A stretch of DNA of 62,875 nucleotides from Azolla caroliniana. Lineage: Eukaryota; Plantae; Polypodiophyta. How positions within the stretch are numbered: the stretch's first letter is position 1; each line of letters opens with the position of its first letter. Made by a program: the position numbers and the translations under genes. Below are positions 8,747-46,814 of this stretch, piece after piece. The DNA is taken from contig JBHGNT010000163.1 in NCBI GenBank assembly GCA_043228905.1, forward strand, positions 1-62,875. Direction: 5' to 3'. The notes under the pieces were generated by a model. The model was not told the origin of the DNA. It searched no databases and saw nothing but the letters and a program-made list of their open reading frames with translations.

Positions 8747-10072
8747 ATGGTGCCATGGCCAAGAAGCAGATGGAGAAGAACACCACCAGCAAGAAGAGGA
8801 AGAAGAAGACCACCTTCTCTGAATCTCCTCCTCCTCCTCCCACTACGTCTGTGGTTAGCCATTGCTCTGTTTCTCACATGCTTCCTCTACCTCTTCCTCT
8901 CCGGCTTCTTCTCCTCTCCATTCGTCCACCCTACCCCTCTTCAACCGCTTCCATGGCTCCGATCAGTTGGCCATGATAACTTCTATAGCATCTGCCGAAA
9001 CCCTAACCCTAACTCTAACGTTACTAGCCATAACCCTAAGCCTGACCCTGATTCTGACGGAATTAACGCTCTCGCGAACGTTAAGGGAAGTAAATCTACT
9101 TCTAATCCAATCCCTGACAAAAGTGGCCATGTTTTCAACGGAAGCTCAGTTCCTAAACCTAACGACTCTAGCCATATTCCAATTTCTGACTGGAACCGTA
9201 ACTCCAGCAAAAGTATCGATGAAATCAATCAATTCTTCCTTGTTGCTGTCATCTTTAACAGAGTATTTGGGCGAGATAGATTTGGGATTGGTCCATATGA
9301 ATGCCGACAGTGGATAGAATACATGGTCTATTCCGGGGTCGAACACATATTCTGGTATGACACTGCCCACAACAATGCAGAATCTCAGGAACCTTACCTC
9401 GCCTCCTACACAAGCGGAGGAATCTTGACCTATCTCAGGTTCCATAGAATCTTCCCAGATTCTGTGACGAAAGGATTCCACTTTGAACAGGACAATGCTT
9501 ATACCCATTTCCTTGCAACTTTCAAGGGCAGAACAAAGTGGGCTATTCAGATAGATGTGGATGAGTATCCTTTCTCTCCCATGGATAAAGAAAGCTGCTT
9601 TTTGCAAAGGTTCATTAGAGAATATGAGAGGAACAATCCCAATGTGACACAGATACTTCTACAATGTATGATCTTTGCCGGAAACCCTAGTGGTGACCTT
9701 ACCCATGGATGGGTTATTGAAAGGTATCAGAGAAGGAAGTATGAAACAGAGGGTCTTGTGAAAGGGTATGAAAGTAGGCAAAAGCCGATATATCGAGCAG
9801 ATTTGTGTAAAGGGATTATTAAAGAGAATCCTCATATTATTAGAATGGAAGATGGGAACACTATAGTTGCCGATGATGTGAAAATCCGATTGAATCATTA
9901 TTGGGGTGCCCGAGAACTTGGTTTCACACCTGATACCATTGAATCGGATTTGATGCTTGTGAATGATAATGGTATTCAATACATTGCATCTCACATCAAA
10001 CAGGAAACAGAGCTGAGAAAGCGAGAAAAAGATGTGCTCGGGACTTTCCTCCGAATGGTTGCATGCTGGTGA
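8747..10072 (+). CDS. Intronless type II membrane glycosyltransferase, GT92/DUF23-like (GT-A fold), 441 aa
   Basis: Basic N-terminal tail, hydrophobic anchor (LWLAIALFLTCFLYLFL), Asn/Pro/Ser-rich stem, then WIEY..YSGVEHIFWYD, Q..AYTHFL and W...IDVDEY (DxD), which are GT92-type motifs. Confidence 0.8.
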   Translation: MVPWPRSRWRRTPPARRGRRRPPSLNLLLLLPLRLWLAIALFLTCFLYLFLSGFFSSPFVHPTPLQPLPWLRSVGHDNFYSICRNPNPNSNVTSHNPKPDPDSDGINALANVKGSKSTSNPIPDKSGHVFNGSSVPKPNDSSHIPISDWNRNSSKSIDEINQFFLVAVIFNRVFGRDRFGIGPYECRQWIEYMVYSGVEHIFWYDTAHNNAESQEPYLASYTSGGILTYLRFHRIFPDSVTKGFHFEQDNAYTHFLATFKGRTKWAIQIDVDEYPFSPMDKESCFLQRFIREYERNNPNVTQILLQCMIFAGNPSGDLTHGWVIERYQRRKYETEGLVKGYESRQKPIYRADLCKGIIKENPHIIRMEDGNTIVADDVKIRLNHYWGARELGFTPDTIESDLMLVNDNGIQYIASHIKQETELRKREKDVLGTFLRMVACW

Positions 10073-11424: not shown

Positions 11425-14400
11425 TTACTTTCTAGATCGACCTATATTGCTCACTCTTTTCTGAAGTTTATGCGACTCATCTTCTGATAGAACCTGGGCT
11501 TTCCGGCTAGTTTTATCAAGCTTACGCACACCCATGCTCGCACATTTCTGACCATCCACAGTTTTCTTGATACCATCTGAATTAGAACTCTTGAAATCTT
11601 TTCTTCCGTTATTATTCTGAGATAACACAAAACCATCATTTTCGAAATTATTGCCCGTGAATGGTGGAACTGCACTAATGTTCCTACCCTTTGCATCATC
11701 ATTGGTCACAATATCTGTAGGAAACAAGCAAGAATCGGATTGCAGTAAACGATAACCATAATCAATAAACCGGTGAGCATGACTAAAAGGATCATCCGAC
11801 ACTTCTTTCAAGGACAATAATTCCTTTATTTTTGCAGCAAGATTCTCATGGAGGGATCTCAACCGATCATCTATTAGTTCTATCTTCTCCCTTGTTGATG
11901 CTTGGTTATTAGCAATTAAACATCCTGAAGCACTTTCTGTGAGTTTTTTTATGTCCACTTGCCACGATGTCCAAAGAAATTCAATCTCCTTGTTTGTGAC
12001 TTCAAGGAGATTCTTCCAAAATGCATTAACAGCTCTCTTTATCTCAGCTTTCGCGATATCTGCAGTGAATAACGCAACTTCATTGCCTTCTAGAACTTTC
12101 TGAAGAGTCTCGCTGAAATTTCTGCCTTTATTACATTGCTTGATGAGGGTATTTGAGAGATACTTAAGACCTCTATAATATGCCTTTCTTAAAGCTTCTC
12201 TCACTTGACCAAGGAGGCCTCCATCCATGCCACCACAGAAATACTTTGCTCGAAGGCGTTTCAAGGATAGTTCCCATTTTCCACGAAGTTGAACATGAAG
12301 GTTAACCGCCATAGCCAGCATGTCAGCATCAGCTATCTGTCACAAAAAAAGGCCACAGTATTACATATCACAAACTTATATTTTAAATTATATTGATTGG
12401 ATATAACAACTATAGTCTACATCTATATCTCAAGCATTTTGGATCTCAATTGAAAAGTCCAAGATCAATCAATATGGAAGATAATTTTCAATGCTCAAAA
12501 CTAGATGCAAGTTGCCTGTCAAAATGTTAAGAACACATGATTGTAATGGAGGAGGAAATTTCAAGTCTGTTGTGTGACTTATGGTCAAATTGTGCAATAG
12601 CAAGAAAGCAAGAAGAATCTGCACTCAGGACAATAACCAAAACAAAATTGACAAATTCCAATTTAGACAGAAACAGATAGGGCTCTAGGAGAACAGAATA
12701 GACCTTCTCAAAACGTGCATCTATCAAAGCTACATCACCCCTCATAGAGTTGAGGTTCTCGAGTGCTTGTTCCATAAAATCTTGTGAATCCTTGTTGATC
12801 ATGTGCACAAGCTCATTGGCCTTCTTTCCAACAACTTCTGGACAAAACCCACGAATTATAAATGGACCTAATGAGAAACGATCAGTCTGAATTTCAGATA
12901 GCAACTTGTTCCCCATTGAACCACCGAGATCTCTAATCTCCTCGGGTGTCAGTCGACATTCATCGGCACATTTGCCTAGCAGATATTCTAAACGATCCAT
13001 GTTTAGATTTTGATCTGGATAGCTCTTAATGAATGCACTTCTTGCAACTATTCTTGTAGATCGTTTACATTCGGTTTTCAAAAATTCAATGTATGATGTA
13101 TCTGGCTGCAGGAACAGAAAGCACAAGAATATCATCATAAAGATATTTAATCTTCTTACCATGCATAAAAATAGACAAAACAAAAATTCCATGCTTGCCA
13201 CATAAAAATTTAAGCAAAATTATTTACCACTGTTGGTTGTGCCAAAAAGGTTAAGCTTTGCTGAGTAGAATTAATAATGTGCTGAAGGTCGTTTAACGTT
13301 GGTGGCACACGAACAGAGTGTATCTTTTCCAGTAATTGTGGTATGTTTGTTTCTTTGCAAACTTCCCTAACTTCCTCTTCATTCATCAACAAAGGACAAC
13401 ATTTTTGTCCCTTCGATTCACAGGCCATCTTGTGTAGCTGAGGATTAGAAATCGTTAGATGAAGCGATGCACATAAAAAGGGAAGAACTGGTATAAGGCA
13501 TATTGAGCTTGCAAATAAGCTGTCTATTCTCTTTAGCCCAAGAGCTGCCCCAATACGTTTGCTTTTCACCAATCTACTTACAATCTTCCTGAATATTTTT
13601 TTCAAACTTATGAGTATATTGTCCTTTGAATCAAATCCAGCCACGAGATCCTTAGGGCACAACCCCTTCTTCATGTCTTTCTCTGCAATGCCCACAACAA
13701 CTAGACTGCAGGTTGCAGTTTCATCTATCAGCATTCTCTCTAGAAGAACGCTATCGACAAGTGATGCTTCAGTTTGCACATCAATCACAGACTTGTCCAG
13801 CACAAGCAAGATTAAAGATGTCCGATCAATCGCATCTCTAGTTTCTCTTTGATGCAAAACCCTTGGATCATTAGTGCCAGGCACATCTAGTAGACTTATG
13901 CCACTTTCGAAGCTAGATACTGGAACTTGTATTGATAAGTCTTCGATGAGTTTCCCGAGGTCTTGAGAGAACTTCTCTCTTATTCCTTCTCGGACAAATA
14001 TCCGATCAATGGTGCTCCTACAACCATACATTACATTCATTAGATGGTATAAAAAATAAGGACAATAAAGGGTAAAAAAAACATTTGCATTGGTTGCAAC
14101 CAAGAAAATTTCTAATATATTAAGAATTATATATTTTCTTTTCCGAATGTAGCCTCAATCTATGCCTAAGACACACGAGAATCAATGTGTGCTTATTTAG
14201 GTCTTCAAATATCAGTACTCAATGTAAGAATCAATGTGTGCCTATTACGTATTCAACTAGCAATATCCTCCTTCAAAAAGCGTCTAACTGTGTTACGTGT
14301 ATATGATCAAGAGCCTTTGCGTGTGACAATACAATTTGTGGAAAAAAAGTCGGTATTCACCCTTTTGTATTCTCCGTCTGGATCAATTCCTCTCTGTCCA

Positions 14401-15505
14401 GGAGCCCTCGTTTATTTCCCAATTCATCGATCACCATATGGATTTGCTCTTCAGTGGGTCTTTCTTCAGAACTTGGTATGCCAACAAGCTGGCGTACAAA
14501 CAGCCAAAACTCTCTTAGTTCCGCAATAGTTTGCTCTTCCATAGCCTGACCAGTATTATCTAAAAACTGTCTGAGGTTCCGAAGTTTCTTCCGTAGCTTC
14601 TTTCGGGTAATCCAACGGACTTTACCAGCAAATTTTGGACCATATTCAAGAGAAGTGACCTTTGTGGTGCCTGCATCTCCCATCCGCCCATTTGGGAGGA
14701 TGAAAGGATGCAGGTCATATTGAGGCACATGTTTGTTCATATACGATTGCCTATCCCGAGCACAACAAATCCCAAGGAAATCTTTGAATGAGAGCTTCTC
14801 GCTAACCATGAGTTTGGGAGGTACATATTCTGTTCTACATGCAGGCATGGAAATTCCACCTCCATTGTCATTCTCAAGGTCGGCATCTTCAGGTTCCAAC
14901 TCATTAGGGTGGTGTGAATGGGCCCTTGAGCACTCGCCATAAACCCTTGCACTGTCGCGTAATACTGCCCGAGCCGAGTCGGACCTGATACCTTGAATGT
15001 ATGTCTGACCAGAAGCACATGTCATAGACAACAAAAGGTTCTGCAATGTAAATATGAAGGATCAAAATGAATGAATTAAGGGAGCGTGATCAAGCCGAAA
15101 GAAGCAGGGTGAAATACGCATGCATCCGTAGGTACATGTATATGTGCATGTAAAATGTATAGACATTATGATTACCAGGAGAGTGGATTTCCCACATCCG
15201 GTGCGCCCGAGGACCGCAACAAACTGTTTGTGGCAGGGCCAGAGGGCGGCGAGGTTAGCATGGAGCTGGTGGCACACCAACTGCACCGACTCGAGGGTAG
15301 GCATCATGACGCATACAACACCGCCGCCGGGGCCTCCAGGGCTCCTCATCAGTTCCTCATAGAATGCGCTCAGGGTTTCGACGAGGCTTTGCAGCACGCA
15401 GACGACGTCATCGGCGAGGCTGAGCAGAAATGCAGTGGGGGGTTGGATGTTCAGAAGATCGTGATCGTGATTGTGATTGTGATCACAGGCCATGGATTCC
15501 TCCAT
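11425..15505 (-). CDS. Large dynamin-superfamily (Dynamin_N; SLIP-GC/NUGGC- or bacterial DLP-like) P-loop GTPase, 5 exons, ~1037 aa
   Basis: Exons 15505-15176, 15040-14361, 14017-13228, 13105-12704, 12336-11425 have GT-AG borders and matching phases (3114 nt). G1 VAVLGRTGCGKSTLL|NLLL is joined across intron 1; G2-like LPNG..GDAGTT; G3 LLDVPGTND; long helical C-terminal region. The start could also be the ATG at 15493. Confidence 0.75.
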
Positions 15506-18106: not shown

Positions 18107-18439
18107 ATGGCGAAGCATCACCCGGATCTCATCATGTGCCGCAAGCAGCCGGGCATCGCCATCGGGCGGCTCTGCGAGAAATGCGACGGCAAGTGCGTGA
18201 TCTGCGACTCGTACGTGCGGCCCTGCACCCTGGTGCGCGTCTGCGACGAGTGCAACTACGGCTCCTTCCAAGGGCGCTGCGTCATCTGCGGCGGCGCCGG
18301 CATCTCGGATGCCTACTACTGCAAGGAGTGCACGCAGCAGGAAAAGGATCGCGATGGATGCCCCAAGATCGTTAACCTCGGCAGCGCCAAGACGGATCTC
18401 TTCTACGAGCGCAAGAAGTATGGGTTCAAGAAGCGATAG
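18107..18439 (+). CDS. PHF5A: PHD finger-like domain-containing protein 5A (SF3b subunit, Rds3 homolog), 110 aa, intronless CDS
   Basis: [39 protein letters not shown]...[30 protein letters not shown] matches this ultraconserved protein. Confidence 0.98.
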
Positions 18440-21403: not shown

Positions 21404-24400
21404 TCACACATTATATGTGTAATCACTATCATCCTCATCAAGTGCCTCAACATCTTTGCATACATCACCCAACTCTTCAAGATCAACAGCTGAGTATCCT
21501 ACACAATTCACATCTTTAGGTGTATCTGTCCCATCAGGTTTTACATTTCCAGATGTAAGGCCTGCATTTCTGGATGTGCTATTCACATCCCCAGGTGTAA
21601 TATCCACATTTCTGACTGCAGTACCATCGCCTACTTTTTCTGATTTGAACCAATGCATTGGGCCTGAATCTAGTTTCCTATACTCACCATTCCACACAAT
21701 TATCTGCTCTTTATCGAATGATAGCAAGACACAAGGCACTAGATCCTGCAACAATAAATGAAGAAATAAAAGAAAAACGTGAAAATAATTATCTCTGGTG
21801 ATTATCCATCTTCGTCAAAGATTTGCAGAAGTTGATAAATATTCTTCAAAAGATCTACCAAATCAGTCAGAAACTATCATATATAGAAAACACTTGTTTG
21901 CATTGAGACATACCCTCAATTTCCCACCGATCCTTTTATAGTCGCTTGTGTTAAGACCAGTGCAATCTATCCTTACGAGAACATCATCTTCAAAAGCTTC
22001 CCTCACATGACCCACAAGATCTCCATAGTAACCGTTTTTTGCTAAGAAATAGAGAAACAAATTGGTAAATATTGAGTTTGAGTTCTTTTTTCTTGTTATC
22101 TAGAGGGATGAAAAGAAGAAAAAGTAAAGGTACAAATCAAATAACTCACCAAGTTTGCAAAGTGGCATGATCCTGAGACCGCGTTTCCTTAGGAAATTCG
22201 CAACATGCACTTTCAAACCACCTGGTGCCTCTGTGATGAGCTTTGGATAGATGGGTGAATGTGGTTTCCACAACATTGGTGGAATGATCGGTCTCTCTTT
22301 ATAGCTATAGTTTCTACCCCTAAATAAATATAGAGTTCCACCAGCCCTTTCAATGATTTTTCCACCTGTCTTGTCCTGCCAATATCAGAACTGCAAGATT
22401 TTTTCATCATATTCACGATCTACTTGAAAAGATCTATTTACCTATTTTGCATACTATGAAAGCCCAAGTCTTCTAATTGATGATGCATTCACATTCATCA
22501 AGAAAAATATGTTTTTTCAAGGCATTCCATGTCAAATTTCGTCCAGTAAAATATGAGTATTTGAATTAAAATCTCTCACTTGACCCTAACCAGAACAGGC
22601 ATCAGCAGTTTGTTAATATAGCTTAACTTGGGCTTTTTTTCAGCATTCTTAACTTCTTACCTCAATTTGGAAGATCACATTTTCCATGTCAAGTGTCGGC
22701 ACTCCTTTACACCGTACGCGTACCACACACTCACGTTTCCAATGGTCATGGATTTCAATTAGTGTATTATGTGTCAGCCCATCCCTTCCTATACACAAAA
22801 CAGCGGAAAAATATGATTTGAAAGAACAACCAAATATCTCCCAGTCAATGATGGGATAATGGCATGATAAGCCTATGAATCCTACAGAAAGAAGTGAAAA
22901 TACAAAATTAGAAAACGAATTCTCTCACCAGTCCTACAGTCCCAGCTATTCCCACCTTTCCCTTCTACTGAATTTCAGTTTCCCTCACAAACTCTGAAAT
23001 ACACTCAAGTTTTTCTTTCTTTCCACAAATGCCCCTATGTTTGTGTTATTTCCCCAAAAGTTCTTTGTCAACCCTTGAAAAACGAAAGATGAGGATGAAT
23101 TGACCATATGATTGCTCAAATAGTGTATCTCATTGAAAATAAGGGAATTCATTCTCTATATAATTGCTCTTTCAGGAGTTTCCTAAAGTGATAATTTTTT
23201 TTTTTTAAAAAGAACGTGGAATCGGGCATGTACCAATGTTTAATTGTCTACGACTCTTAATCGAATGTTCCACGAGTTCCTTTATTTCTTCCTTTGTCAA
23301 AGGCTCTCCGAGGATCTCTTCTCGCGTCCTTTCGCTCTGAGGATGCCCACATGTAGCTATTGGGCTTGGGGGATTAACAAATTTTATTCCTTTTAAGCTG
23401 TATTTGCTTTCCCTTCTGTTCAATAATTGATGAATCCATCAGTATTTGGAAAATAAAAAGAAAAAACTAAATTTAGGGTCGAATTTCTTTAGTTGAATTA
23501 TTCGAAAATCACATTTAAACTTTGAAATTCCAGGGCAACAATACCCCTAAATTATGAGATGGTTTCGAAAAACAAATCTTCAAATAATTGAAAATCGATG
23601 TTAAAGTTTTGAATTTGACAGTAAAGACATATCTATATTATAGAACAAAAAAGCTTAAGACATTGAAATTTATATTTGAAATTTCTGAAATGTAGGTAAA
23701 GATACACCTATATTAGGAGATATTTTAGGAATTAAAATAATGTGATCATCTTTTTCAACCATGGGCTCGAACTTTACGAAGTTCTATGAAAATCTAACAA
23801 GTATGGATGAAGGTGAGATTGCATTTTCAAAATTCAACTTTACAGACATTCAGCAGAAGTAAAGAGGAAAAAATCAACATTTCAAACAGCCGACTTGATA
23901 TCAACAAAGATATAAAAGAAACAAATAATTTAAACAATTGTACATGAAAATTTAGATGAATGGTTTGAAATCACATTTTGGAAAAATTATATGGTTCGAC
24001 AACCCATCTTTATATTGATAAAGTTTTAATGAAAAGAAATACAGCATCAAATTTAGATGAAGGTTAACGAATTATATTGAACTTACTACTCAACAAAAGA
24101 TTAAAATAAACAATCTAAAACAGATTTTGGATGAAGGCTTAATGAAAGAATCATAGAAATTAAAAATTAAAAAACTTGACACGGTGAGAAGATTAAAAAA
24201 GAACACTTTCAGAGAACCAGACTCACTAATCCACTGGAGGAATAAGGTTTACTTACATTTTGGGTGAAAAAGGATAATTTTCAGCCACTGGGGTGGTTGT
24301 TAATGATGACCATGATGAAGAGGATGAAGAGACTGATACCATCTGCGACAATGATGAAGAAGATGAAGATGACAAAGAAGAATTCGGCAAAGCTTGTTGT

Positions 24401-24804
24401 CCATCCCACGCTCGATCCAATCGATTTGGACCGAATGGAGAGAACTTCTCTTGGAAGCCAACTGGATCTGATTTGGGCACCTCTGTATAACTATACCTAA
24501 ATGCAAAGGGCAAATCTGAATGAACAGGGGTTTTCGCTGTTAAATCTTCAAATTCAAAAGGTCCAGGAGGGCCTCTCTTCTTGTTCTTCTTCTCCTTTTT
24601 AGAAATCGTTGTCCTGTTCTTTTGGAAATCAATGAAATAATCTCCATCTCTGACCACCCTATCTTTGTCTGCGTATCCAACTCCATGACACTTTGATCTT
24701 TTGTTTGTTTGGCAAGAAACAGAGGAGAGTGTAGAAAGGGGAGACAGAGTGTGAGCCGTGATACCTGTGAGTTGCACATTCCACCTTCTCCTTCTGATGA
24801 ACAT
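21404..24804 (-). CDS. CRM-domain group II intron splicing factor, CRS2-associated factor family (mitochondrial mCSF-like), 6 exons, ~517 aa
   Basis: Exons 24804-24257, 23415-23234, 22788-22661, 22375-22150, 22041-21914, 21745-21404 (1554 nt). Motifs DLPFAFRYSYTE..FSPFGP.RLDR.W, ILGEPLT, GRDGLTHN, KGVPTLDM, LFRGRNY, MLWKP, AKNGYY, VRIDC, DLVPCVLLSF. The Arg-rich N-terminus resembles a transit peptide. Confidence 0.9.
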
Positions 24805-26429
24805 GGGATAGTGACCTAAAAGAAAACAATCTGTGTCTCTTTGTCTAGTCTCTGTTCTCTGATTGATTGATTGTCTATTTGTGTTGTCATTCACTAGATG
24901 AAGAAGGGTACCTAACTCTGTCCAAAACAGCAAAATAGCACCTTGTATGGACAAGATTGAAGACCATTCAGTAAGTGTTCATGAGAGATTAGATTAGCTA
25001 TACAATCCATGGGACAAAGACCATGCCTTGCCCATGCCAAGGGTCGAACTTACTTGGGCTCTCTGGACATTTGGACTTACGATACTCACGTATAAACCAT
25101 GTGAGCCTATGAGCAAAAGCGATAGCGAGATTTTGACAATGCATTGGTAGATACCTCCAGAGAGATTTTGGAGGTTCTTCAAAGGGAGAGTTAGTGCACA
25201 TGGAAGACCCAAGAACAACCTGCAAGAATGTCTTGTGAGAGCCTAGAGTTGGCCCATATGAAAAGCATGAGAAGCCACACAAAGCCCATGTATAAGGAGC
25301 CTTAGATTTTGTTGTCTGCCATAATCGGTTGCCTAAACCAATAATTGTAAAGGGTAATTGTAATGTTCTGTTCTTATGGGCTGCCGCACAACTTGATGAC
25401 AGCTTTTCATAAACCATCTCCCCATGATTATAACATTCCTTCGTAATAAATTGCTTTTAATTGTTCATAGCATAATGCCAACTATTTCTATATCTCGTAG
25501 TATTCACAAGCATGTGTACAATATATTGAATACAACGTGGTGTCATGCAAGGATATGGAATGCAAAACCACAACATAAACGTGCTCTCTGGATGATGCTA
25601 CTTCAAGAAGATGGTCATCCATACACAAATGTGGGCCATGGATGATCCTACAAGAAGAGATGATAGTCCTTGGATGGGTTTTGCATGTCAACGTACATGT
25701 CATGCATGGGTTGGGCCCAAAATTGGTTTTAATTACAAGAGGTTTTCCACCCACTTACTCATGTATTACCCAACAGGGTAGGGGGTACATTGGTTACACT
25801 GGCCTATGCTTTTGTGTGCTCTAAACTATCATCAAACTTGTAACAACCAAGGGAATATGATCGAGAAGTGCCATTAAGTTTGCCCATTGCATTTTACTTC
25901 CTTTTTTTCGTTCATTCAGAGGTTCTATCATTTAGAGATAACATTTTACATCGCGTATAAAAATGGCGGAACACAACCAATGTGAAGCTGTTTACTTTAT
26001 GATTTCCAAAGGAATTAATTTTACATACACCAACAAAAGAATGAATACGGCCTCATTTTGGTACACAAAGAGAAAAAGAATGTCTTGAGTGCTTTGTTTT
26101 GGTACACATAGAGCGCCAAGCTTTTGCACAATGCAATGGCATTTGCATGCAGAACCTACGTTTATGTTAGACCTTAGGAAAGGAGAAAAACTTGATCATC
26201 AAACACTATATGTTGGCGAACAGTGTGCCCTCAACCCCGGTATTGTGGGCATTCGAAGAAACCTAAGGGTGTTTTAGCATTTGTTACCATTGAATCATGT
26301 TGGATTTTTCAATGAAACCTCTTTTGATGAGAGTTTCTTGTTTATACATCCCTCTGCTCTTAAGTACCTAAGGACTATATCGGGTTTCCTCAATGGTTCT
26401 TAACTGAAACCCGATGTAGGGGGTCAATA

Positions 26430-28320
26430 CTAATACACTCTACCATCTTCGGCTTCGGAATTATCTTCTTCACTGTATAATTCATGTGATGAATCTCCCC
26501 GGAACTTTATCTCTCCACTGTGAATATACCTGCAGGTGTCAGAAGGTAAGTTGGATGCAAGTTTTTGTTGCTGGGATCCTTCATTACCATATCCTTGAGG
26601 TACCCAAATACCACCCAACACTACTAATTGAGGAACATCATGGGATATTGTTGTTTTCCCAAAGCTTCCATCTACTTGTCTTCTTGTATGTAACCTATAT
26701 TTCTACAAAACCAACAACCAAAAGGATGATATAAGATTAGTTCCATTATTATTAGCTTGAGTTAATTTCTAATCTCTGAACAAACAAAATCTAGACTGAC
26801 ACAAAGTGTTACCTGAAGGTGGCTTTTCACTTCATCATTTGTCAAGTCATCGACATTCATAAGTTCTCGGATTTGCTTTGGAGTCGCGCCTGCGATTGAT
26901 ACATTCAAATTACGAGGAGTTAGAAACACAAATTTAAATAGAGGAACTTGGAAGGCACATATTATGTCATAATGGGAATCAATCACAATCTGAAAATATC
27001 TAAACATGCTTTTTCTGCAATTTCATGTTGAATGTGGAGCCTTTAGGTCATGTTTACATACACTGAGATCCGCCGAGTTGATGGAGAGCATGGACAAATC
27101 TCCGATGAAGCTCAGGGGACCAACACCTTCTTTGCTTTCTGCTATGTTGGGTAGCATTGTTGGCACGAGTCGGCGGCGTGGTTTTACTGTTGGTATTTGT
27201 AACCATAACAGCTGGGTAATTCCCCTGATTTATATTAGGGGATGATGTTCTCTCTGCATAATCTTCTTTATCTCCAATGGCAGGTGATGACACTTCACAA
27301 GGAGACTGTTGTTCTAGTGCTGATATATTTGATGCAGTTTTGGTTTTCAAGAAGGGCATGAAAGCCCCTCCTCTCCGTTCACAACTAATCGGGATAGGTT
27401 TCATAATGCTACTACTGTTGCAATAAGTAATGTCTCCACCACCCATGGCAGAAACCATCTGGAACACACCAGAAAACACATCAATATATAGTGCTATATA
27501 TATATACATATATGTGAATGGTAGGTCTATTCGATCTACGCCGAATTCACAACAAGCAATGCACATAATGCATTCATTTCCATATACACAATCATTCATA
27601 CTGTCGATGACCAGAGAGATACTAGAATATCCATTACATTTTTCTCAATAGAATTATGATATATAACTAGGCTTAAATCCCATTCCACAATTTTAATCAT
27701 CCGTGAAATGAAGATGATGATTGTCTCGTTACCTCTTCACCATGGGCATATGCTTCTTCGAGGCTCCAGAACTTAGTAGTTTGAGCGGTTGTTCCATTGA
27801 TCCTCGGACTCGCTTCTTCCGAACTCAGACCTTTTGGCGTGCCCAATCCATTCAGGGGCCGGAAAATGGTATCGATATTGATGTCCTCATTGATGGGGGT
27901 GACAGGATGATTTGAGATCACTTCTTGATCCTTGGAGTTGGAAGCTGAGTTTTGGAAGTTGTTAGCAAGTTTCTCCTTGGAAGCCTCTATTGCTACAGTT
28001 ACAGGAGATTAATGTATAAGAATCAACATATACATACAGAGAGATATAGTGAGGGGAAAAAAGAGAGAAATATGTATGTGTAGATAGTTACCACTTGTGA
28101 GTAGAGTCATGCAAAAAGGGAGCTCTCTCTTGAATGCTTCAATCTTCTTCCTTTCTGCCTCGAGAGATTCCACATAGTGCTCAAGTTCAAGTAGCTTTGA
28201 TGTGTTGGAGTCACGAGCTCCACTGTCACCGTCATTGTTCATATATGGCATTAACCCTAATGTTAGCTCTGCATGATTCGAACCCATGATGACTTGGTGA
28301 TGATCTTTATATAATAACAT
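26430..28320 (-). CDS. GARP/G2-like MYB transcription factor of the HHO/HRS1/NIGT1 clade, 5 exons, ~411 aa
   Basis: Exons 28320-28092, 27992-27733, 27458-27062, 26889-26813, 26702-26430 (1236 nt). Motifs [59 protein letters not shown]...[28 protein letters not shown]; N-terminal ELTLGL is EAR-like. Confidence 0.93.
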
Positions 28321-29591
28321 CAATATGCGTAATATTGATAGCCAAAATAAGTTTTTATACTTATAATTTCCTTTATCTTCAAGGCTTAGATCTCATGTGC
28401 AGGGAATTCTTCTTACTGTTTACAGATTTGGGTTCTGCAGAATGGTAAACCAGAGAAGTGGCTATTGGTTATTCCTCAGATTGTGAAGAGATTTCAGGTA
28501 TGGAGTCTTCGAAATTGGATGAATCAGAGATGAAGATGGGTGAAATAAAAAGAAATCGTGTGAGATAATCAAATGGGTTTCCCGCAGGAAAATGTTTATT
28601 ATTATTATTATATAAATTTCAGGTATATGATTGAAGAATTACAGATATGGGTTCAACTGAAGATTTGCAGAATCTGGATGGGTGTCGGCTCAAGATCTTT
28701 AGAAGGAAGGGCAGATATGGGTAATGGGTTCTTCAGAGATAAATTTAGGGATGGGGGTTCTTCAGAGGATTGAAGAAATTTGGAGGATTTTGAAGGATTT
28801 GGGAGAGGGAGGGGTACAGAGCTAAATATAAGAATGAGAGAGGGATGATGTAGAGAGAGAGAGAGAGAGAGAGAAAGAAAGGGGAGGGGTATGGATAGAA
28901 ATTAAAGATATACTTGGGGGGGGGTGTATGCATACAAGCACTTGTCGGACAATGCCGAACCGACACAGAAATCTTGTCTTTCGTCCGTCCCTGGATCAAC
29001 CCGACCAGAAGGCAAGCTACTGATGGGAGGGGCTCTCTCCTCAGATTTGCGGGAAATCAATCCCCCCAACCCAATAACAATGTCTGATGATGATGATGCA
29101 AAGAATGTGCGCGCGCGCAAAAGAGAGAAGAGAAGAGATGGCACAAGATTAGCGACAAACTTTCGTATGGAAGAGAAACAAGAGCCCTCGGGATGGTGTG
29201 TTAAGGGGAGAGCATTAGGGGATCGCAGTAGAGTATATCCCTTTTCGATTGAAGAGTCTCCTTATCTTAGTGTTTGGTACAATAGAATCTTGAAAATAAT
29301 ATTCCGTCGTACATACCCTCTCTTCAAAGTTCATGCATAAAGAGACACTTCTCTGTGTGCGTGAGTGAGTGAGCGAGTGAGTGGAGGGCACAAAAAATGT
29401 TGAATAAATGGGTTTTGAATCTTGCATCATCGTGTGGATCCCAACCTTTAACATCTCTCTCTTTTGGTGAGAGCTAAAAAAAGAGAGCCCAAAAGACTGA
29501 TTTTATGGAAATTTACCGAAGTACCCCTTGTTAATTATTCGCAATTTTCCGCTAGTGTTCTCCTTCATATCTTTTGAATCCTCCTTTACCG

Positions 29592-35404: not shown

Positions 35405-35563
35405 TGGTATCAGAGCGATTTGGTAGTTCGATCTAGCCCATTCGCCTCATTGTGATCGTGTGTTGTGCTCCACGCCAACGACCAAGAACCGGCTCATCGC
35501 TATCGTAGCTTCGCTACATAGCTCGCATTCGAAGAGAGAAGAAGAAGAAGAAGAATCGACATA

Positions 35564-38500
35564 ATGAATGCTCAAATGGGGAGCGCTCTCCCTACCGAGA
35601 AGTTGGATCGAAACAACTTCGCATCTTGGGAGTACAAGATGCACCATAACCTTGTCGGACAAGGCTATTGGAGCTACATCAAAGGAGTGCATGAAGACCG
35701 ACCCACTGAAGCGGCTCCCGGATATGCGACATGGGAGCAAGCCGTAAGCCGCGTGATGTATTGCTTGGCAACATGTGTTCACGATCACATGCTCGGCTAC
35801 ATTCGCGAAGCCAAGACGCCAAAGGAGGCATGGGAAAATCTACGAAAGATTTTCGCGGCGAACACAACCGCAAGAAGGCTTCAACTCCGCCAAGAGTTGA
35901 ACAACATTCAACAAAGGGACATGTCCATTACGACATACACCTCGAAGATCATGGAGCTTTGCGATTCGCTCGACTCAATAAGCGTAAATATCGATGATGA
36001 TGAGATGGCTCAAATATGCCTCCGTGGCCTCGCACCACGGTTCGACGCGATGTGAACCGCCGTTCTAGCACGGGAGAAATCTCCCTCCTTCTTCGAGCTC
36101 CAATCAATGCTTTTGGTCGAAGAAAACCACGTGCGTACAAGGAGCAATGAGTCTGAAGGCCACATGCTCTACACACACTCAAATGGAGGAAGAGGACGCG
36201 GACGATCGAGAGGCTGATTCGGCCAAGGACAAGGCAGACGAGGTCCAACCTACGATAACAACTCCCAATTTCGGCCGCAAAACGGAAGCCAACGAGGAAC
36301 CTTTGCAAGAAGGGGGAGCTTCCACTCTGGCCCGAGCCATCAAAACGCAACCGAATGCGGATATTGCGGAAAGCTGAGCCACTACGAAGAAGAGTGCCGA
36401 AAGAAGATGCGTGAATCAGCTTCCACAAACCGACAGCTCACGAATTACACGCACAATTCCAACTACGAAGAGTATAGCGGAATGTACGGGAACAACTCCG
36501 ACTACAAAGATCGTGGCGGAATGTATGCACGCAACTCCGACCATGGCGGTATGTTCATGATGAAACATAGAGCAAACTCTATGTCGGCCTCTACCTCAAC
36601 TAGTGCCCTCAATCCGGAGGACGTATGGTTTGTTGACTCCGGAGCCTCAAAACATATGACATCCCATAAAGAATGGTTTCTCGAACTTCGAGAGCCGTAT
36701 CAACCCGATTATGTCGAAACCGGAGACGACACTACGCACTCGATTCGACACATCGGCAATGTTTCGTTCGAAAAAGAAGGTAAGCAAAATTACATTAAAA
36801 ATGTCTTGCATGTACCGACCATTACAAAGAATTTGGTCTCTGTCGGCCAAATTGTAGAGCAAGGGATGCAAGTTCCATTTAATCAAGGCGGTTGCTTCAT
36901 CGAAAAAGAGGGCCGACTCATCGCACGCAGACGAAGAGAGGGTTGAACGTTCATTCTCGACTCACACGAGATGAAATCGGCCATGTTTGCAAAGGGAATG
37001 AAAGCCGACTCAGACATAGAGTTATGGCACAAGCAGATTGGCCATATAAATATCCAAAAGATCAAAGCAATGAAATCAAAAGGATTCGTCATCGAACTCC
37101 CATCATTCAAACAGAAGGAGATTAAAGGTGTATGCGAAGCGTGCCAATTCGGCAAGCAACACCAACACCCATTCCCGAAAGAGCGGAACGTGAGCAAAGG
37201 TCTACTTGACGCAGTCCATTCCGACGTATGGGGACCGACGCAGACGACTACATTCGGCGGATGCCGATATTACGTGCTCTTCATCGACGACTTCTCTAGG
37301 CACACTAGGATCTACCCGATTCGGCAAAAGAGCGAAGTGTTCGGACACTTCTAAACAATCAAGAATGAAGTCGAGAAAGCCACGTGCCGACATGTACGTT
37401 GTCTTCGATCGGATGGCGGCAAGGAGTACTTCTTGGACGATTTGACGGTGTCGTGGAGAAAACCGTCCCTAGGCGGAATCAAAGAATATCGGGAGAATCG
37501 GCAGTGTGCACTATGTGCACTTACCCTTGTAAAAACGTGTGAATAATAGGAGTTAAGTCAGGACAGAGGATCCCATGTATAATGGATTTATCCCACATTG
37601 TAACGTATCTCCCTCCTTGTTCTATAAAAGGAAGGGAGCGCCTCTTGTGAAAGGGTTGCCCATTTTGACTTAGGAGGGTATACCACTTAGGTTTAGGGGT
37701 TAGAGGATCCCATGTAAAAGGGATTTATCCCACATTGTAACGCATCTCCCTCCTTGTTCTATAAAAGGAAGGGAGCGCCTCTTGTGAAAGGGTTGCCCAT
37801 TTTGAGTTAGGAGGGTATACCACTTAGGTCTAGGGGTTAGGTAGTGTTCTTCCTCTTCATCTTATTCTTGTTCCCTGAAGGTTTGTACTTTGGTCTTGAC
37901 CCTCTTTCGTTTTAGGGTTTTGTCTTGGTTTCTTCTTATTCTTCTTATTCTTGTTCGTGTCTGTTGAGGGTTTAACCCGACGAAGAGCTTGTATGTTCTG
38001 TGAGGTTTTACTTCTACTCGGCCCCTTGTGCAAGACCCCGCTCGGCGCGATGAGCCCGTGAGCTCCCTGACGACGGCTTGACGGCAGACTGTTGTTGTGA
38101 CCTACCCTACCTCAGTCCGGCTCGGAGCCGGAGATGTAACTCACTCTAGTAATATATATATATATATATATGTTTGGTTGTGCACATCTGTGCCTTTGGT
38201 GGTGTCGGGAGTTTGTCCCCCCTTTGTTTTCTGTACATAAGAGTTGGTGTTGCGCGCAAGCTCTCTCCCTCACTCTCTCTCTCGTGTTCGGTTGCCTCCG
38301 GGACGTGTCCGGAGTCGGTTTCTCGGCACCCCCTTTCTCCCTAGTCCGAGACCCCTGTGGTCCCACCCCTTCTACACGCACACGCGTAACAACACAACAA
38401 CAACATATCTCCGAAAGGAAGGAATTCGGCGAGAATTCACTTGCCGACACACTCCGCAACAAAACGGAGTAGCCGAACTCAAAAATCGGCACATCCTCGA

Positions 38501-40835
38501 AGTAGCGCGGGCCATGATGAACGAGAAGCATATGCCCAAGTCATATTGGGCCGAAGCTGCAAATATGGCCGTCTACCTAATGAACCGGTGCACAACATCT
38601 GGCGTGCACGAGGTCACTCCGCACGAAAAATACTTCGGAAAGAAGCCGAAATTATCGCACACCCGGATATTCGGCGCGATAGCGTACGTGCACATCCCCG
38701 ACGTAAAGCGTCAAAAGCTTGACCCGAAGTCGGAGAAATGTATCCTCGTAGGATACTCATTGGAGCAAAAGGGGTACAAGTGCTACAACCCCTCAACTTG
38801 AAAATCTTGAGTAAGTCGAGACGTCGTTTTTTATGAGTCTGCATCTTGGTACGCAGCAGAGACAACTTCGACTCCGACTCCGCTCGACTCGGAATCCGCT
38901 GAACAAGAGGTAGAGGATGAAGATTGCCTTACACGCATGTTCGAAGAAAGTCCAATCACGAGCCGATTGAGCGGACCACAAGAGCCTTTTAGCGATCAAA
39001 GCACATCACGGCCTAGCCTGAAGATGGACAAAGGCAAGGCGAAAATGTTAGAATACGAAGACGATCGCTTCGACGACAATGAGTCGACTCACTCACTCGA
39101 CAGTGAGTTCGGCGGCTTCGATGTAACAATCGGAACTAAGAACGCCCTCATCTCTGCAAATGAAAAGCTCCGTCGCTCCACCCGTGAAAAGAATCCGATC
39201 AACCAATTCGGCTACAATGACTACATGGCATATCACTATGCCTTAATGATGAAGGTGGCGACAATACGCGAGCCGGAAACATTTTCCGAAGCAACCAAGG
39301 ATCCGCGATGGATAGAAGCCATGAACGAGGAGATCCAGGCACTATGCAAGAATGAGACGTGGGATCTTGTTCCCACTTCACCACACAAAAAGGCAATCGG
39401 ATGCAGATGGATTTACAAAGTGAAGTACAACGCCGATGGTTCCGTCAACTGCTACAAAGCGTGACTCGTAGCGAAAGGCTACACCCAAACGCATGGAGTG
39501 GACTACGAGGAGACCTTTGCCCCAGTGGCAAAGATGACGATGGTACGGACCGTAATTGCGCTTGCCGCGGCGAAAGGGTGGCACCTCCATCAAATGGACG
39601 TTTAGAACGCCTTTCTACAAGGCAAATTAGAAGAGGTGTACATGATACAACCACCCAGCTTCAACTCGAGCACCCATCCGAAAGCTGTATGTCGACTCAA
39701 GAAGCCACTCTACAGCCTCAAGCAAGCACCGCATGCTTGGCATTCGAAGATAACACAATATCTTCATCAAATCGGCTTCCGTATGTCAAAATCGGACAAC
39801 TCCCTCTACATACAAAGCAATTCTGCAAGTCCGATCGTCATCATCTTATATGTGGATGACCTAGTCATTGGAGGTGAGCACCTCATCGAAATCAATAAGG
39901 TCAAATCCCTCCTTTCCGACAAGTTTGAGATGATGGACATGAAGGAGCTCCACTACTTCCTCGGCATCGAGGTAATTCGGACTCCGACCGGAATCCTAAT
40001 CTCTCAACGACACTACATCCTCAACTTGTTATACAAGTTCGGTATGGCTGAGTGCAAATCCGCAACAACCTTGCTCGATCGCAATCTCAAACTAGATGCG
40101 AACTCCGGCACCAAAGCGTGTCAGCCGACTCAGTATCGGCAACTCATCAGGAGTCTCATCTACCTCACGATCACTCGACCCGATCTCAGTTATCCAGTCG
40201 GTCTCCTTAGCCAATTCATGCAAACATCGCGTGATACTCACTTGGATTGCGCTAAGCGAGTTCTACGATACATGAGCGGCACAATGGATTGCGGCATCCT
40301 CTACAAGACCGCGATGCCAACATGACTCGAGGGGTACACAGACACCGATTGGGCCGGCTAAAAAGCCAACAGAAGGTCAACCTCCGTATTTGTTTTCTCC
40401 CTCGGTAGCGGAGCAATATCCTGGAGTAGCAAGAAGCAGCCTATCGTTGCTCTTACGAGTACGGAGGCGGAATACAGGGGCGTAGCCGTAGCTGCGCGTG
40501 AAGCCGTATGGCTCAAGAGGATTTTGAAGGCTCTGGGCGTATCCATCAAGGATCCGACCTCCCTTTACTGCGATAACATGAGCATTATCTATCTGGCTCG
40601 GAACCCGGTGTTCCATGCGCGGACAAAGCACATCGAAGTGCACTATCACTTCATTCGAGAGCGTGTTCTAGCTGGCGATGTCGACCTACAACACATTAGC
40701 ACAAATCTTCAAACGGTCGACATCTTCACTAAAGCCTTAGGAGCCGACAAGCTGTGGCAATTCATGACCGATCTCGGATTGACGATCCCTAACTTGCCAA
40801 GCTTGAAGGGGAATATTGAAGATATTACGCAATAA
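35564..40835 (+). pseudogene. Copia gag-pol polyprotein, interrupted by stops, frameshifts and a nested insertion
   Basis: gag (KLDRNNFASW; zinc knuckle CGYCGK.SHYEEEC), protease WFVDSGAS.HM, GAG-pre-integrase/integrase HSDVWGP, FIDDFSR, TPQQNGVAE, RT LYVDDL, RNase H FHARTKHIEVHYHFIRE. Confidence 0.93.
37449..38399 (+). mobile_element. Nested ~950-bp LTR-like insertion (probable solo LTR of another family) inside the Copia integrase
   Basis: Splits SDGGKEYFLDDL from TYLRKEGIRREF. TG...CA ends and an internal 137-bp tandem duplication (37565-37701/37702-37838), each copy with CTATAAAAGG. No clean TSD, so the borders are approximate. Confidence 0.7.
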
Positions 40836-41073
40836 CGCGTGGATTCCGCAAGCCGCGCACACTACGCAAGAACGCGTGGATTACACAACCACGCAACGAA
40901 GCCGCGAAGAAAGATGCAAGCCGAAGCACAGACTTTGCAACTACGCACAACGAAAGCTGGAGCACGGTTTCCGCAACTCCGCATAAATGCGAGTCGACGC
41001 AGACTCCGGAATGCAAGTCGAAGCGGATTTTGGATACTGTCTGAAACCGACCCGACTTGAGCTTGAGGGGGCG

Positions 41074-44903: not shown

Positions 44904-46814
44904 ATGAAGATTGACAGAGACTCTGTACAGAGATTGATGTATACGGTGAAGATATGCAGAGTGATCATCATCAGAGACCTCTGTTACCCTTCACACTCCT
45001 CCTCCTCTCTCCTTCTTCATAGGAACGTCTCAGAATTTGCATTGACGGATCTTGATCTTGCACCTCCAAATGAAGAACAGAGCATTGCAACCCCACTAGG
45101 CCTTGCACCTCTCAGCAGATTAATAAACACGTCTTCTCCTCTCACTTGTTCTGACTATGCATCCTTGCTTCGTCATTGTGGAAGGCACAAGTCCGAACCC
45201 GATGGTAGGTATGCCCATGTTCACATTGTCGAATTCAGCCGCGAACAACTCACATTCTTGGGGAATCTTGTGATTCAAATGTATGGTAAATGTGGAGATT
45301 TGATCGATGCTTACGCTACATTTGAAGGTTTGCTAAAAAAGAATGTGTTCTCATGGAATATCATCATATCTATGTACGTGGATCATGGCCATGGAAGGAA
45401 AGCTATCAGGGTTTTCCAACAAATGTTGAATTATAGCAGTATTAGGCCGCATCAAGCCACTTTTGTTAGTGCTCTATCAGCATGTGCTATGGAAAAGTCT
45501 CTTGTCGAAGGTGAATGGATAAATGAATATGCTGCTTCATGTGGGCTTGAGTTTGATTCTCTTGTTGGTACAGCCCTTGTCAATATGTATGGCAAGTGTG
45601 GTAGCCTTGAAGGTGCAGAAGAAGTTTTCAGTAAATTATTGGAAAAAGATGTGGTCACTTGGTCGGCCATGGTTGCAATGTATGCTCAAAATGGCCTTAC
45701 TAATAAAGCATTTCAAGTTTTCGAACAAATGCAAATAGTTGGAATATCTCCTAATCAAGTCACATATCTTGCCATCATTGATGCTTGTTCAGGCATAGCT
45801 CAGATTGGTACAGCCGCCCGCATACATGCCACATTGGTAAAGAGTAAGTATCAGTATGATTTGATGGTTGGGAATGCGATTATTAACATGTATGGGAAAT
45901 GTGGAAGTTTAGAGAATGCTAGGATCATGTTCGATATCTTGCCAAAGAGAAATGTTGTCTCGTGGAGTTCTTTAATTGGAGTTCTTGCTCAGCTAAACCA
46001 TGCGAAAGATGCACTGGAAGTGTTCTGGAAAATGCATCAAGAAGAGGTTGAACCTGATAGGATTACCTTTATAAACATATTGGATGCATGTGCTAGTTCT
46101 ACAGATTTAGCGAAAGGTAAAGCTGTTCATGTTTATGTCATAGAAAAGGGTTACGAAAACGATGTTATTGCTGGAACTTCCCTTGTCAATCTATATGCTA
46201 AATGCGGTAAATTAGTAGATGCACAATTTATGTTTGAGAGGATGGAAATGAGGAATGTCGTCTCGTGGAATGCAATGATCTCTGGATATGCTCAACATGG
46301 CCAGAGCAAATCAGCACTTGAGATATATCAGAGAATGTGTAAGGATGGTATATTGCCTACTAAAGTTACATTTTTTGCTGTTCTTTCTGCATGTAGTTTT
46401 GCTGGCCTAATGCATGATGCACAAGGATACTTTGATTCAATGGAAAGAGATTATGGACTGATACCAGAAGTTATTCATTATAATTGTATTATCGATCTTC
46501 TTGGAAGAGCAGGAATGCTAGAAGAGGGTGAAAACTTGATTAAGAGGATGCCATGTGAACCTACTCCAGCATCATGGATGACTTTGCTTGGTGCTTGTAG
46601 AGTAAAACATGATGTAGAGAGAGCACAACGTGCAACAGAGAAAGTAGCACAGTTGGATCCACAGAATTCTGCCCCATTTGTGATGTTGTCGAACATCTAT
46701 GCATCATGTGGCATGTGGGATGAGGTCATGAATGTAAGAAAATATATAAAGGAGAGAGATTTGAACTTTGAAGACCCAACCATGACACAACTTGATTGTG
46801 CACGTGAAATTTGA
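44904..46814 (+). CDS. PLS-class pentatricopeptide repeat protein with E domains (organellar RNA editing factor type), 636 aa, intronless
   Basis: Repeated MYGKCG.L..A..F...DVV.W..MI..Y triplets; HYNCIIDLLGRAG; SWMTLLGACRV; FVMLSNIYASCGMW. No intact DYW domain. Confidence 0.95.
   Translation: MKIDRDSVQRLMYTVKICRVIIIRDLCYPSHSSSSLLLHRNVSEFALTDLDLAPPNEEQSIATPLGLAPLSRLINTSSPLTCSDYASLLRHCGRHKSEPDGRYAHVHIVEFSREQLTFLGNLVIQMYGKCGDLIDAYATFEGLLKKNVFSWNIIISMYVDHGHGRKAIRVFQQMLNYSSIRPHQATFVSALSACAMEKSLVEGEWINEYAASCGLEFDSLVGTALVNMYGKCGSLEGAEEVFSKLLEKDVVTWSAMVAMYAQNGLTNKAFQVFEQMQIVGISPNQVTYLAIIDACSGIAQIGTAARIHATLVKSKYQYDLMVGNAIINMYGKCGSLENARIMFDILPKRNVVSWSSLIGVLAQLNHAKDALEVFWKMHQEEVEPDRITFINILDACASSTDLAKGKAVHVYVIEKGYENDVIAGTSLVNLYAKCGKLVDAQFMFERMEMRNVVSWNAMISGYAQHGQSKSALEIYQRMCKDGILPTKVTFFAVLSACSFAGLMHDAQGYFDSMERDYGLIPEVIHYNCIIDLLGRAGMLEEGENLIKRMPCEPTPASWMTLLGACRVKHDVERAQRATEKVAQLDPQNSAPFVMLSNIYASCGMWDEVMNVRKYIKERDLNFEDPTMTQLDCAREI

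What the first reader, a model, noticed from the sequence alone, without database searches (positions are those of the whole stretch)
11425..15505. Intact ~1037-aa dynamin-like GTPase unlike standard plant DRPs (SLIP-GC/NUGGC- or bacterial DLP-type)
Seen: five fragmented ORFs splice with canonical sites and matching phases into one ORF. It has G1 GRTGCGKSTLLN, a G2-like LPNG...GTT, G3 DVPG, an atypical G4 region (GIAEKD rather than T/NKxD), a ~90-aa insertion between G1 and G2, and a long helical tail. Knowledge: plant DRP1-5 use GxQSSGKSS and DLPG with middle/GED domains. The GxTGxGKSTLLN.LL...D.PG pattern is closer to the NUGGC/SLIP-GC and bacterial dynamin-like clades. Dynamin-superfamily GTPases (Mx, GBPs) often act in cell-autonomous immunity. 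Inference: a lineage-restricted or horizontally acquired large GTPase, possibly an undescribed defence or membrane-remodelling system in non-seed plants.
Basis: partly seen in the sequence, partly recalled or inferred. Interest (0 to 1): 0.8.

Follow-up and report, generated by a model that had tools for sequence, protein, structure and literature searches.

The report
Unstudied dynamin-like GTPase of seedless plants
This fern gene is a real, spliced, single-copy gene for a large protein predicted to fold like a dynamin; close relatives were found only in ferns, a clubmoss and liverworts, and it likely works in the nucleus of dividing cells rather than in defence, which is untested.

Summary
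The gene is real. Five exons give a 1037-aa ORF, and contigs from public runs skip all four introns at the predicted GT-AG sites. It is single-copy and its GTPase core is under strong purifying selection (pN/pS 0.06). Orthologues were found in ferns, a lycophyte and liverworts; no named seed-plant or moss hit appeared among 1.84 billion representatives. A model of a 60%-identical orthologue has the full dynamin layout and is closest to bacterial DLPs and mitofusins, not plant DRPs. Its nearest relatives are eukaryotic (cryptophyte, Rigifila, bichir, unnamed sequences). They share a ~105-aa G1-G2 insert and a degenerate G4, which bacterial and fungal SLIP-GC-type proteins lack. It therefore looks like an old, patchily kept eukaryotic subfamily rather than a recent transfer. 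Defence is not supported: no gene expansion, and the likely Marchantia orthologue is absent from TMV-response lists. That gene is 7-fold higher in early antheridia than in thallus, like MCM5. Best guess (about 45%): a soluble, nuclear, SLIP-GC-like NTPase of proliferating cells. The scan noted a possibly related protist fusion before (e1-7215446), but not this plant family.

The parts
15176..15505 (-). Exon 1 (aa 1-110): N-terminal helices of the predicted neck bundle, and G1
15185..15208 (-). G1 / P-loop GRTGCGKS (aa 100-107)
15041..15175 (-). Intron 1 (135 nt, GT-AG)
   Evidence: skipped in X1 and X12
14361..15040 (-). Exon 2 (aa 111-337): G1-G2 insert, G2, first part of the G2-G3 helical insert
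14711..15022 (-). About 105-aa G1-G2 insert, shared with the eukaryotic relatives; helical, with one low-confidence loop
14663..14671 (-). G2 GTT (aa 234-236)
   Evidence: invariant in 9 of 9 orthologues
14018..14360 (-). Intron 2 (343 nt, GT-AG); an alternative donor near 14288, seen in X12, would give a stop at codon 338
13228..14017 (-). Exon 3 (aa 337-600): G3, G4 position, end of the G domain
13876..13887 (-). G3 DVPG (aa 381-384)
13678..13692 (-). Degenerate G4 GIAEK (aa 446-450); Glu aligns with the Asp of bacterial-type THAD
13357..13434 (-). H-x3-C-x7-C-x12-C motif (aa 532-557), candidate metal site, land-plant members only
   Evidence: 11 of 11 land-plant sequences, 0 of 7 others tested; metal binding untested
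13106..13227 (-). Intron 3 (122 nt, GT-AG)
   Evidence: skipped in X1 and X12
12704..13105 (-). Exon 4 (aa 601-734): predicted helical trunk
12337..12703 (-). Intron 4 (367 nt, GT-AG)
   Evidence: skipped in X1, X12, X5
11425..12336 (-). Exon 5 (aa 735-1037 + stop): trunk, C-terminal neck helices, low-confidence tail
11425..11502 (-). Conserved C-terminal short helix and basic end, candidate nuclear localisation signal
   Evidence: localisation untested

Best explanation
The locus is an intact, spliced, single-copy fern gene for a 1037-aa protein predicted to have the full dynamin layout, and it likely acts as a soluble nucleotide-driven motor in the nucleus of dividing cells, in the manner of animal SLIP-GC. 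SHOWN: gene model, splicing, single copy, purifying selection, orthologues in ferns, a lycophyte and liverworts, and a eukaryotic sister group sharing the G1-G2 insert and degenerate G4. PREDICTED: a BDLP/mitofusin-type G domain on a neck bundle made of N- and C-terminal helices, plus a helical trunk, with no transmembrane segment. INFERRED from family knowledge: nucleotide binding dimerises G domains, and hydrolysis swings the neck and trunk to move or release whatever the trunk binds. INFERRED from indirect clues: the basic tail imports it to the nucleus, the two large helical inserts and basic helices on the G domain contact chromatin or a nuclear partner, and the job is needed most in rapidly dividing tissue such as spermatogenous cells. 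It was likely inherited vertically from early eukaryotes and lost in seed plants. Identity and history are about 0.85 likely; the nuclear role is about 0.45.
For: Splicing. Single copy. Core pN/pS 0.06 (21 synonymous, 4 non-synonymous). Orthologues 37-60% identical over most of the length. Fold: pLDDT 77.8, pTM 0.61; VIA Z 17.9 to SynDLP (rmsd 5.6, 298 aligned) and Cj-DLP1, 17.2 to MFN1, 16.0 to Fzo1 (rmsd 3.1, 221 aligned), against 12.5 to AtDRP1A. Nearest Atlas cluster is 'Nuclear GTPase SLIP-GC-like', 0.96, 205 of 256 features. Last 30 residues carry net charge +3 to +7 in 9 of 9 full-length land-plant proteins, with K[KR]x[KR] at the end in 7 of 9. Relatives are fused to BRK, NIF phosphatase, OTU and PIN domains, which are often nuclear (recalled). 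Likely Marchantia orthologue Mp2g19320: thallus 7.5, early/middle/late antheridia 52.7/43.6/17.6, resembling MCM5 (6.2/74/65/46) and unlike five IFT genes (thallus <1, peak middle or late) (PMC11371191 supplement rows).
Against: No localisation or activity data exist for any member. The window's own protein and P0001 lack the terminal K[KR]x[KR] pattern and have only a weaker basic end. Atlas ranks 2-6 (fungal and bacterial clusters) score 0.95, nearly tied with SLIP-GC. DUF7605 was not detected in the plant proteins. The expression list holds about 9,900 genes, only one replication gene served as comparator, and cytokinesis or organelle-division genes would show the same pattern. Lack of a TM segment does not discriminate: a bacterial dynamin in the same scan also has none (P0076). 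All solved structural matches are membrane remodellers. The Mp2g19320 link is inferred from the name MPTK2_2g19320.
Confidence: 0.45

Rival explanations
1. It is a peripheral membrane-remodelling dynamin of the BDLP/mitofusin type that tethers, repairs or divides membranes in dividing cells (cell plate, nuclear envelope or organelles).
For: The best structural matches are all membrane-acting (SynDLP, Cj-DLP1, IniA, MFN1/2, Fzo1, BDLP). The neck and trunk are complete. Enrichment in early antheridia fits cytokinesis as well as replication.
Against: No TM segment or hydrophobic trunk tip: the three most hydrophobic windows lie before residue 540 in 9 of 9 proteins. Only 5-35 residues precede the first neck helix in most orthologues, leaving little room for a transit peptide. 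The basic C-terminal end is conserved.
Confidence: 0.3
2. It is a cell-autonomous immunity GTPase, like Mx, GBP or the bacterial Eleos/LeoBC dynamins.
For: The subfamily is patchy across eukaryotes with varied fused domains, a pattern common in conflict genes. Weak PADLOC LeoBC match in 9 of 9 members (best E 3.4e-7, G-domain only). Fish SLIP-GC genes are among horizontally moved immune genes (PMC12107551, passages).
Against: Single copy with one cluster per named species. Core pN/pS 0.06. The Marchantia gene id was not found in the supplements of the TMV study, which reports 1879 up and 1645 down genes, while neighbouring ids are listed. Neighbours in the window are a GT92 glycosyltransferase and PHF5. 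Only one pathogen was checked.
Confidence: 0.12
3. It is an ATPase or a weakly active nucleotide-gated scaffold rather than a true GTPase, because G4 has lost the T/N-K-x-D consensus.
For: G4 reads GIAE in land plants, VNAD in the sister group and xxE in other eukaryotes. EHD proteins in this superfamily are ATPases (titles).
Against: G1 Lys-Ser, G2 Thr and G3 Asp-x-x-Gly are invariant in 9 of 9 orthologues, and an acidic residue is kept at the guanine-reading position. This rival concerns substrate only and is compatible with either location.
Confidence: 0.2
4. It was horizontally acquired by early land plants from bacteria, fungi or a giant virus, or is transposon cargo.
For: Patchy distribution; the fold is nearest to bacterial DLPs; the GC-rich sister sequences have no taxon label, and deep tree support is moderate (88/62).
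Against: No relative by pattern scan in prokaryote genomes or viral contigs (these find close relatives only). The insert is shared only with eukaryote-like proteins. AU test rejects plants plus three bacterial-type proteins, p=0.014. Viral fold matches are generic dynamins at 8-14% identity. No transposon domains. GC 0.43 and GC3 0.41 match neighbouring GT92.
Confidence: 0.07

Closest known systems
NUGGC / SLIP-GC and the Dynamin_N + DUF7605 proteins of animals, fungi and bacteria
   Same: Nearest Atlas cluster (0.96). Profile match 98.8% over 203 columns around G3-G4 to four no-insert proteins, three with DUF7605 hits. Same long G2-G3 spacing (145-158 vs 146-151 aa). No TM.
   Different: About 105-aa G1-G2 insert, GIAE at G4, plant-only His/Cys motif, about 250 aa longer, DUF7605 not detected. 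No named NUGGC sequence was retrieved, so it is not in my trees.
Bacterial dynamin-like proteins and mitofusins (SynDLP 9em9/7zw6, BDLP 2j68/2j69, Cj-DLP1 5oxf, IniA 6j72, MFN1/2, Fzo1)
   Same: Best structural matches: G domain plus neck of N- and C-terminal helices plus trunk (Z 15-18; Foldseek E 2e-8).
   Different: 10-18% identity; two large G-domain inserts; no TM or evident paddle; spliced nuclear gene; basic disordered tail.
Plant DRP1-DRP5
   Same: Same superfamily; AtDRP1A aligns at Z 12.5.
   Different: This genome's DRP-like loci have GSQSSGKSS/DLPG (3 of 5 fetched) or GHQTDGKS (1 of 5) and score under 3 bits against the family profile. A review lists six land-plant DRP types, none like this (PMC4154393, passages).
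Eleos (LeoA/LeoBC) anti-phage dynamins
   Same: Weak G-domain similarity (E 3.4e-7).
   Different: Single eukaryotic gene, no partner gene seen, match limited to GTPase motifs.

Membership tests
Dynamin superfamily | TRAFAC G domain with G1, G2 Thr and G3 DxxG | tested here: met
   Invariant in 9 of 9 orthologues; Dynamin_N above cut-off in 4 of 6 tested
Dynamin superfamily | Neck/BSE bundle from N- and C-terminal helices plus helical trunk/stalk | tested here: met
   AF2 models of P0004 and P0001; alignments span residues 13-866; trunk matches MxB stalk Z 9.2 and 5owv_C Z 9.5, middling for helical bundles
Dynamin superfamily | Canonical G4 T/N-K-x-D | tested here: not met
   GIAE at the aligned position; acidic residue kept
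Dynamin superfamily | Assembly-stimulated GTP hydrolysis | not testable with these tools
   Needs an enzyme assay
Plant DRP1-DRP5 | GxQSxGKSS-type G1 and close G1-G2 spacing | tested here: not met
Plant DRP1-DRP5 | Pfam Dynamin_M and GED domains (recalled) | tested here: not met
   Not listed at E<=0.1 in 6 of 6 orthologues
FZL / mitofusin | Transmembrane segments in the C-terminal half (recalled) | tested here: not met
   No hydrophobic window after residue 540 among the top three in 9 of 9 proteins (hydropathy only)
NUGGC / SLIP-GC | Dynamin_N G domain with long G2-G3 helical insert | tested here: met
NUGGC / SLIP-GC | C-terminal DUF7605 (PF24564) | tested here: inconclusive
   No Pfam hit in 6 of 6 and no profile match, but that comparison also failed between the other groups, and only 21% of the Atlas SLIP-GC cluster carries it; Atlas lead 0.84
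NUGGC / SLIP-GC | Short G1-G2 spacing as in the no-insert group (23-44 aa) | tested here: not met
   124-134 aa in land plants; tested against bacterial-type and fungal proteins, not named NUGGC
NUGGC / SLIP-GC | Orthology to named NUGGC in a tree | not tested
   No named NUGGC sequence was returned by any search
NUGGC / SLIP-GC | Nuclear localisation | not testable with these tools
   Only a basic tail is seen
Eleos / LeoBC defence system | Paired dynamin genes with full-length model matches | tested here: not met
   Single gene; match covers profile positions 62-166 of 601

The most novel reading that the evidence does not exclude
An undescribed, ancient eukaryotic branch of the dynamin superfamily works in the nucleus as a mechanochemical enzyme on chromatin or replication machinery. 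It is carried with chromatin- and ubiquitin-type domains in protists, kept as a single conserved gene in liverworts, lycophytes and ferns for rapidly dividing and germline cells, and lost in seed plants. Marchantia would then be the first tractable model for membrane-independent dynamins such as SLIP-GC.
Probability: 0.3. Interest if true: 0.8.

Novelty: new variant of a known kind. Interest (0 to 1): 0.52.

Why it matters
The land-plant dynamin set is described as six DRP types (PMC4154393) plus FZL. This is a further, structurally complete and strongly conserved dynamin-like protein that Arabidopsis-centred work would miss, because the likely Marchantia orthologue has no TAIR10 hit. It has one copy in a genetically tractable liverwort, so a knock-out and a fluorescent fusion would show directly whether a dynamin-fold motor can work in the nucleus, a question open since SLIP-GC was described. 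It also defines a eukaryote-wide subfamily with a rewired nucleotide pocket and large inserts for which I found no description.

Tried and rejected
Sequence search of PDB gave only P-loop matches to ABC ATPases. Pattern scans found no relative in prokaryote genomes or viral contigs. Metagenome scans gave nothing for P0063 and one 1171-bp contig, 94% identical to the window, for A1, so the GC-rich sister group stays without a taxon. No RNA holder was listed as such by the run index; RNA status of X1 and X5 is a guess and X12 is unlabelled. The G-domain homodimer prediction with GDP and Mg returned no verdict. Profile comparison of C-terminal halves found nothing between any two groups and did not beat a reversed control, so it says little about DUF7605. 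The first AF2 model (9 sequences, pLDDT 59) was superseded by a 34-sequence model. NCBIfam gave only P-loop matches. The gene id was not found in supplements of PMC11906373, PMC9680858 or PMC9402228 (small files). Supplements of PMC13078155 (Pseudomonas, salicylic acid) and PMC13237563 (cell cycle) were too large to read and may bear on both the defence and proliferation readings; Data Set 5 of PMC11371191 is cut. The primary SLIP-GC papers and a Phytophthora study were not held. Sixteen short P-loop-only hits were left out of the alignments; P0028 and P0030 were dropped from the first tree for low occupancy and not used in the second. Rejected: pseudogene (open frame, spliced, purifying selection); contaminant contig (neighbours include a PPR gene with an E motif and a Copia element); flagellar protein (expression unlike five IFT genes).
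Full report
OBSERVATION. The gene lies on the minus strand. Testing all nearby GT/AG pairs, the longest open combination uses exons 15505-15176, 15040-14361, 14017-13228, 13105-12704 and 12336-11425, giving 1037 aa. Laying four of 16 listed runs showed a single 2925-nt contig in X1 that skips all four introns at exactly these sites. X12 has the same four joints. X5, about 99% alike, shows the intron-4 joint with only 24 letters on one side. X4, probably DNA, reads through the introns. X1 and X12 come from different studies and a related organism, not necessarily this species. Exons 2 and 3 each match one place in the 523-Mb genome.

SELECTION. Using the 35 listed of 40 differences between X1 and the window in exons 1-3 and 36 listed of 44 in exon 5, the G-domain core has 21 synonymous and 4 non-synonymous changes (pN/pS 0.06). 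The insert gives 0.28 (5/5), the exon-5 helices 0.46 (9/15) and the tail 1.4 (2/10, too few to read as more than relaxed). Exon 4 was not counted.

RELATIVES. Word-indexed searches returned nine long orthologues: Adiantum (2), Marchantia (2), Riccia (2), Diphasiastrum and two unnamed Logan proteins, 37-60% identical to the spliced protein. A profile search of 1.84 billion representatives gave 51 hits. Eleven are the land-plant tier (four long proteins and seven exon-sized pieces). The scores then drop to 60 bits or less. I looked up 30 of the 51. None was named as a seed plant or moss; P0012 and P0016, from the land-plant tier, are unnamed. Absence from seed plants is thus non-detection in a clustered library. 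It is backed by one independent row showing no TAIR10 hit for the Marchantia gene. The named distant hits are Cryptomonas paramecium, Rigifila ramosa and Polypterus/Erpetoichthys. These and the other eukaryote-like hits that span both motifs have 95-146 residues from G1 to G2, against 23 in bacterial-type proteins and 44 in a Suillus protein, and an acidic residue at G4. Profile matching covers 462 columns against the eukaryote set (99.7%) but 203 against the no-insert set (98.8%). Several carry extra domains: OTU, NIF phosphatase, PIN, BRK.

TREES. On 224 core columns without the insert, land plants join a GC-rich unnamed group at 99.6/100, and all insert-bearing proteins group at 70/81. Under a mixture model on 537 columns, land plants are 100/99, plants plus the GC-rich group 88/62, and the no-insert proteins are split off at 94/96, with several long branches. 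Liverworts, lycophyte and ferns branch in species order, weakly at the lycophyte node. Forcing plants together with three bacterial-type proteins is rejected (p=0.014). I read this as an old eukaryotic lineage with many losses. The sister group may be green algae, but that is a guess. No named NUGGC was available for the trees.

STRUCTURE. The orthologue P0001 (60% identical) was folded with a 34-sequence alignment: pLDDT 77.8, pTM 0.61, with both inserts largely helical and the last 120 residues low-confidence. Foldseek ranks SynDLP, BDLP, Cj-DLP1 and IniA first (E 2e-8 to 1e-6), ahead of Drp1 and dynamin (1e-4 and weaker). VIA gives Z 17.9 for SynDLP and Cj-DLP1, 17.3 IniA, 17.2 MFN1, 16.0 Fzo1, 13.9 EHD2, 13.3 MxA and 12.5 AtDRP1A. 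N- and C-terminal helices form one bundle, and the middle matches dynamin stalks at modest Z. The most hydrophobic window lies inside the G domain, and none of note lies in the trunk. An H-x3-C-x7-C-x12-C motif occurs in 11 of 11 land-plant sequences and 0 of 7 others tested; a metal site is a guess. Four of five own-genome Dynamin_N loci fetched have ordinary DRP-type G1 motifs and no similarity beyond chance to this family.

FUNCTIONAL CLUES. The nearest Atlas cluster is 'Nuclear GTPase SLIP-GC-like' (0.96), with fungal and bacterial clusters at 0.95. For SLIP-GC I saw only a secondary statement that it is nuclear and enhances B-cell genome stability (PMC12107551, passages); its link to replication sites is recalled. 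All nine full-length plant proteins end in a short conserved helix and a basic tail. In the supplement of PMC11371191 (rows and passages seen), Mp2g19320 reads 7.5 in thallus and 52.7, 43.6 and 17.6 in early, middle and late antheridia. MCM5 reads 6.2, 74, 65 and 46, while five IFT genes are below 1 in thallus and peak later. The list has about 9,900 genes, so only the profile is informative, and it points to proliferation in general. In the TMV study PMC11436993 (supplements searched, passages read) the gene is absent while neighbouring ids appear. The link from P0009 (MPTK2_2g19320) to Mp2g19320 rests on the name.

MECHANISM. Most likely a dynamin-type cycle: nucleotide binding, G-domain pairing, hydrolysis, and a neck/trunk swing (family knowledge, not shown here). 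I put the site of action in the nucleus of dividing cells at about 0.45, on membranes at about 0.3, and in defence at about 0.12. Whether the substrate is GTP or ATP is open because G4 is degenerate.

NOVELTY. It works like a dynamin-superfamily protein and meets the structural tests for membership. It fails the tests for DRP1-5 and FZL/mitofusin, and is related to, but not shown to be, NUGGC. A review lists six land-plant DRP types, none of this kind (PMC4154393, passages). A survey of new DRP clades excluded the BDLP/mitofusin side (PMC10280142, passages). Eight full-text searches aimed at this family found no description of it (listings only), though subscription papers are not covered. The scan's earlier notes hold no look-alike sequence. 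One word-search note describes a protist PHD + SLIP-GC-like + OTU fusion, which may belong to the same subfamily; I did not see its sequence. Interest 0.52.

Noticed in passing
window 14288-14360: Run X12 shows a second donor for intron 2 at depth 18 against 33 for the main joint; in the window's sequence it would introduce a stop at codon 338. Possible unproductive splicing as regulation.
   Followed up: partly
window 11572-11631: X1 and X12 lack 60 nt (and a further 6 nt at 11506) in the tail-coding region, without GT-AG ends; X5 retains most of it. Probably in-frame indels between species.
   Followed up: no
L003 (G000:C735:2000-5200): An intronless 670-aa dynamin ORF at GC 0.54 on a 16.6-kb contig, with motifs that look like fungal Mx-type dynamins (recalled); possible fungal contamination or endophyte DNA in the assembly.
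   Followed up: no
window 8747-10072 (+): Single-ORF glycosyltransferase family 92 gene, convergent with the GTPase gene.
   Followed up: partly
window 18107-18439 (+): PHF5-like splicing factor ORF with GC3 0.88, preceded by a purine-rich simple-repeat tract; divergent from the GTPase gene.
   Followed up: partly
window 35500-40850 (+): Broken Copia-type LTR retrotransposon (gag and RVT_2 hits).
   Followed up: no
window 44904-46811 (+): PPR gene with E motif, typical of organellar RNA editing factors.
   Followed up: no
P0055 / P0078 (Polypterus, Erpetoichthys): Bichirs encode an uncharacterised 1003-aa member of the insert-bearing subfamily; no other vertebrate was named among the hits looked up.
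   Followed up: no
window 24256-29337: Several 120-240-codon open frames with no Pfam match; may be exons of unannotated genes.
   Followed up: no
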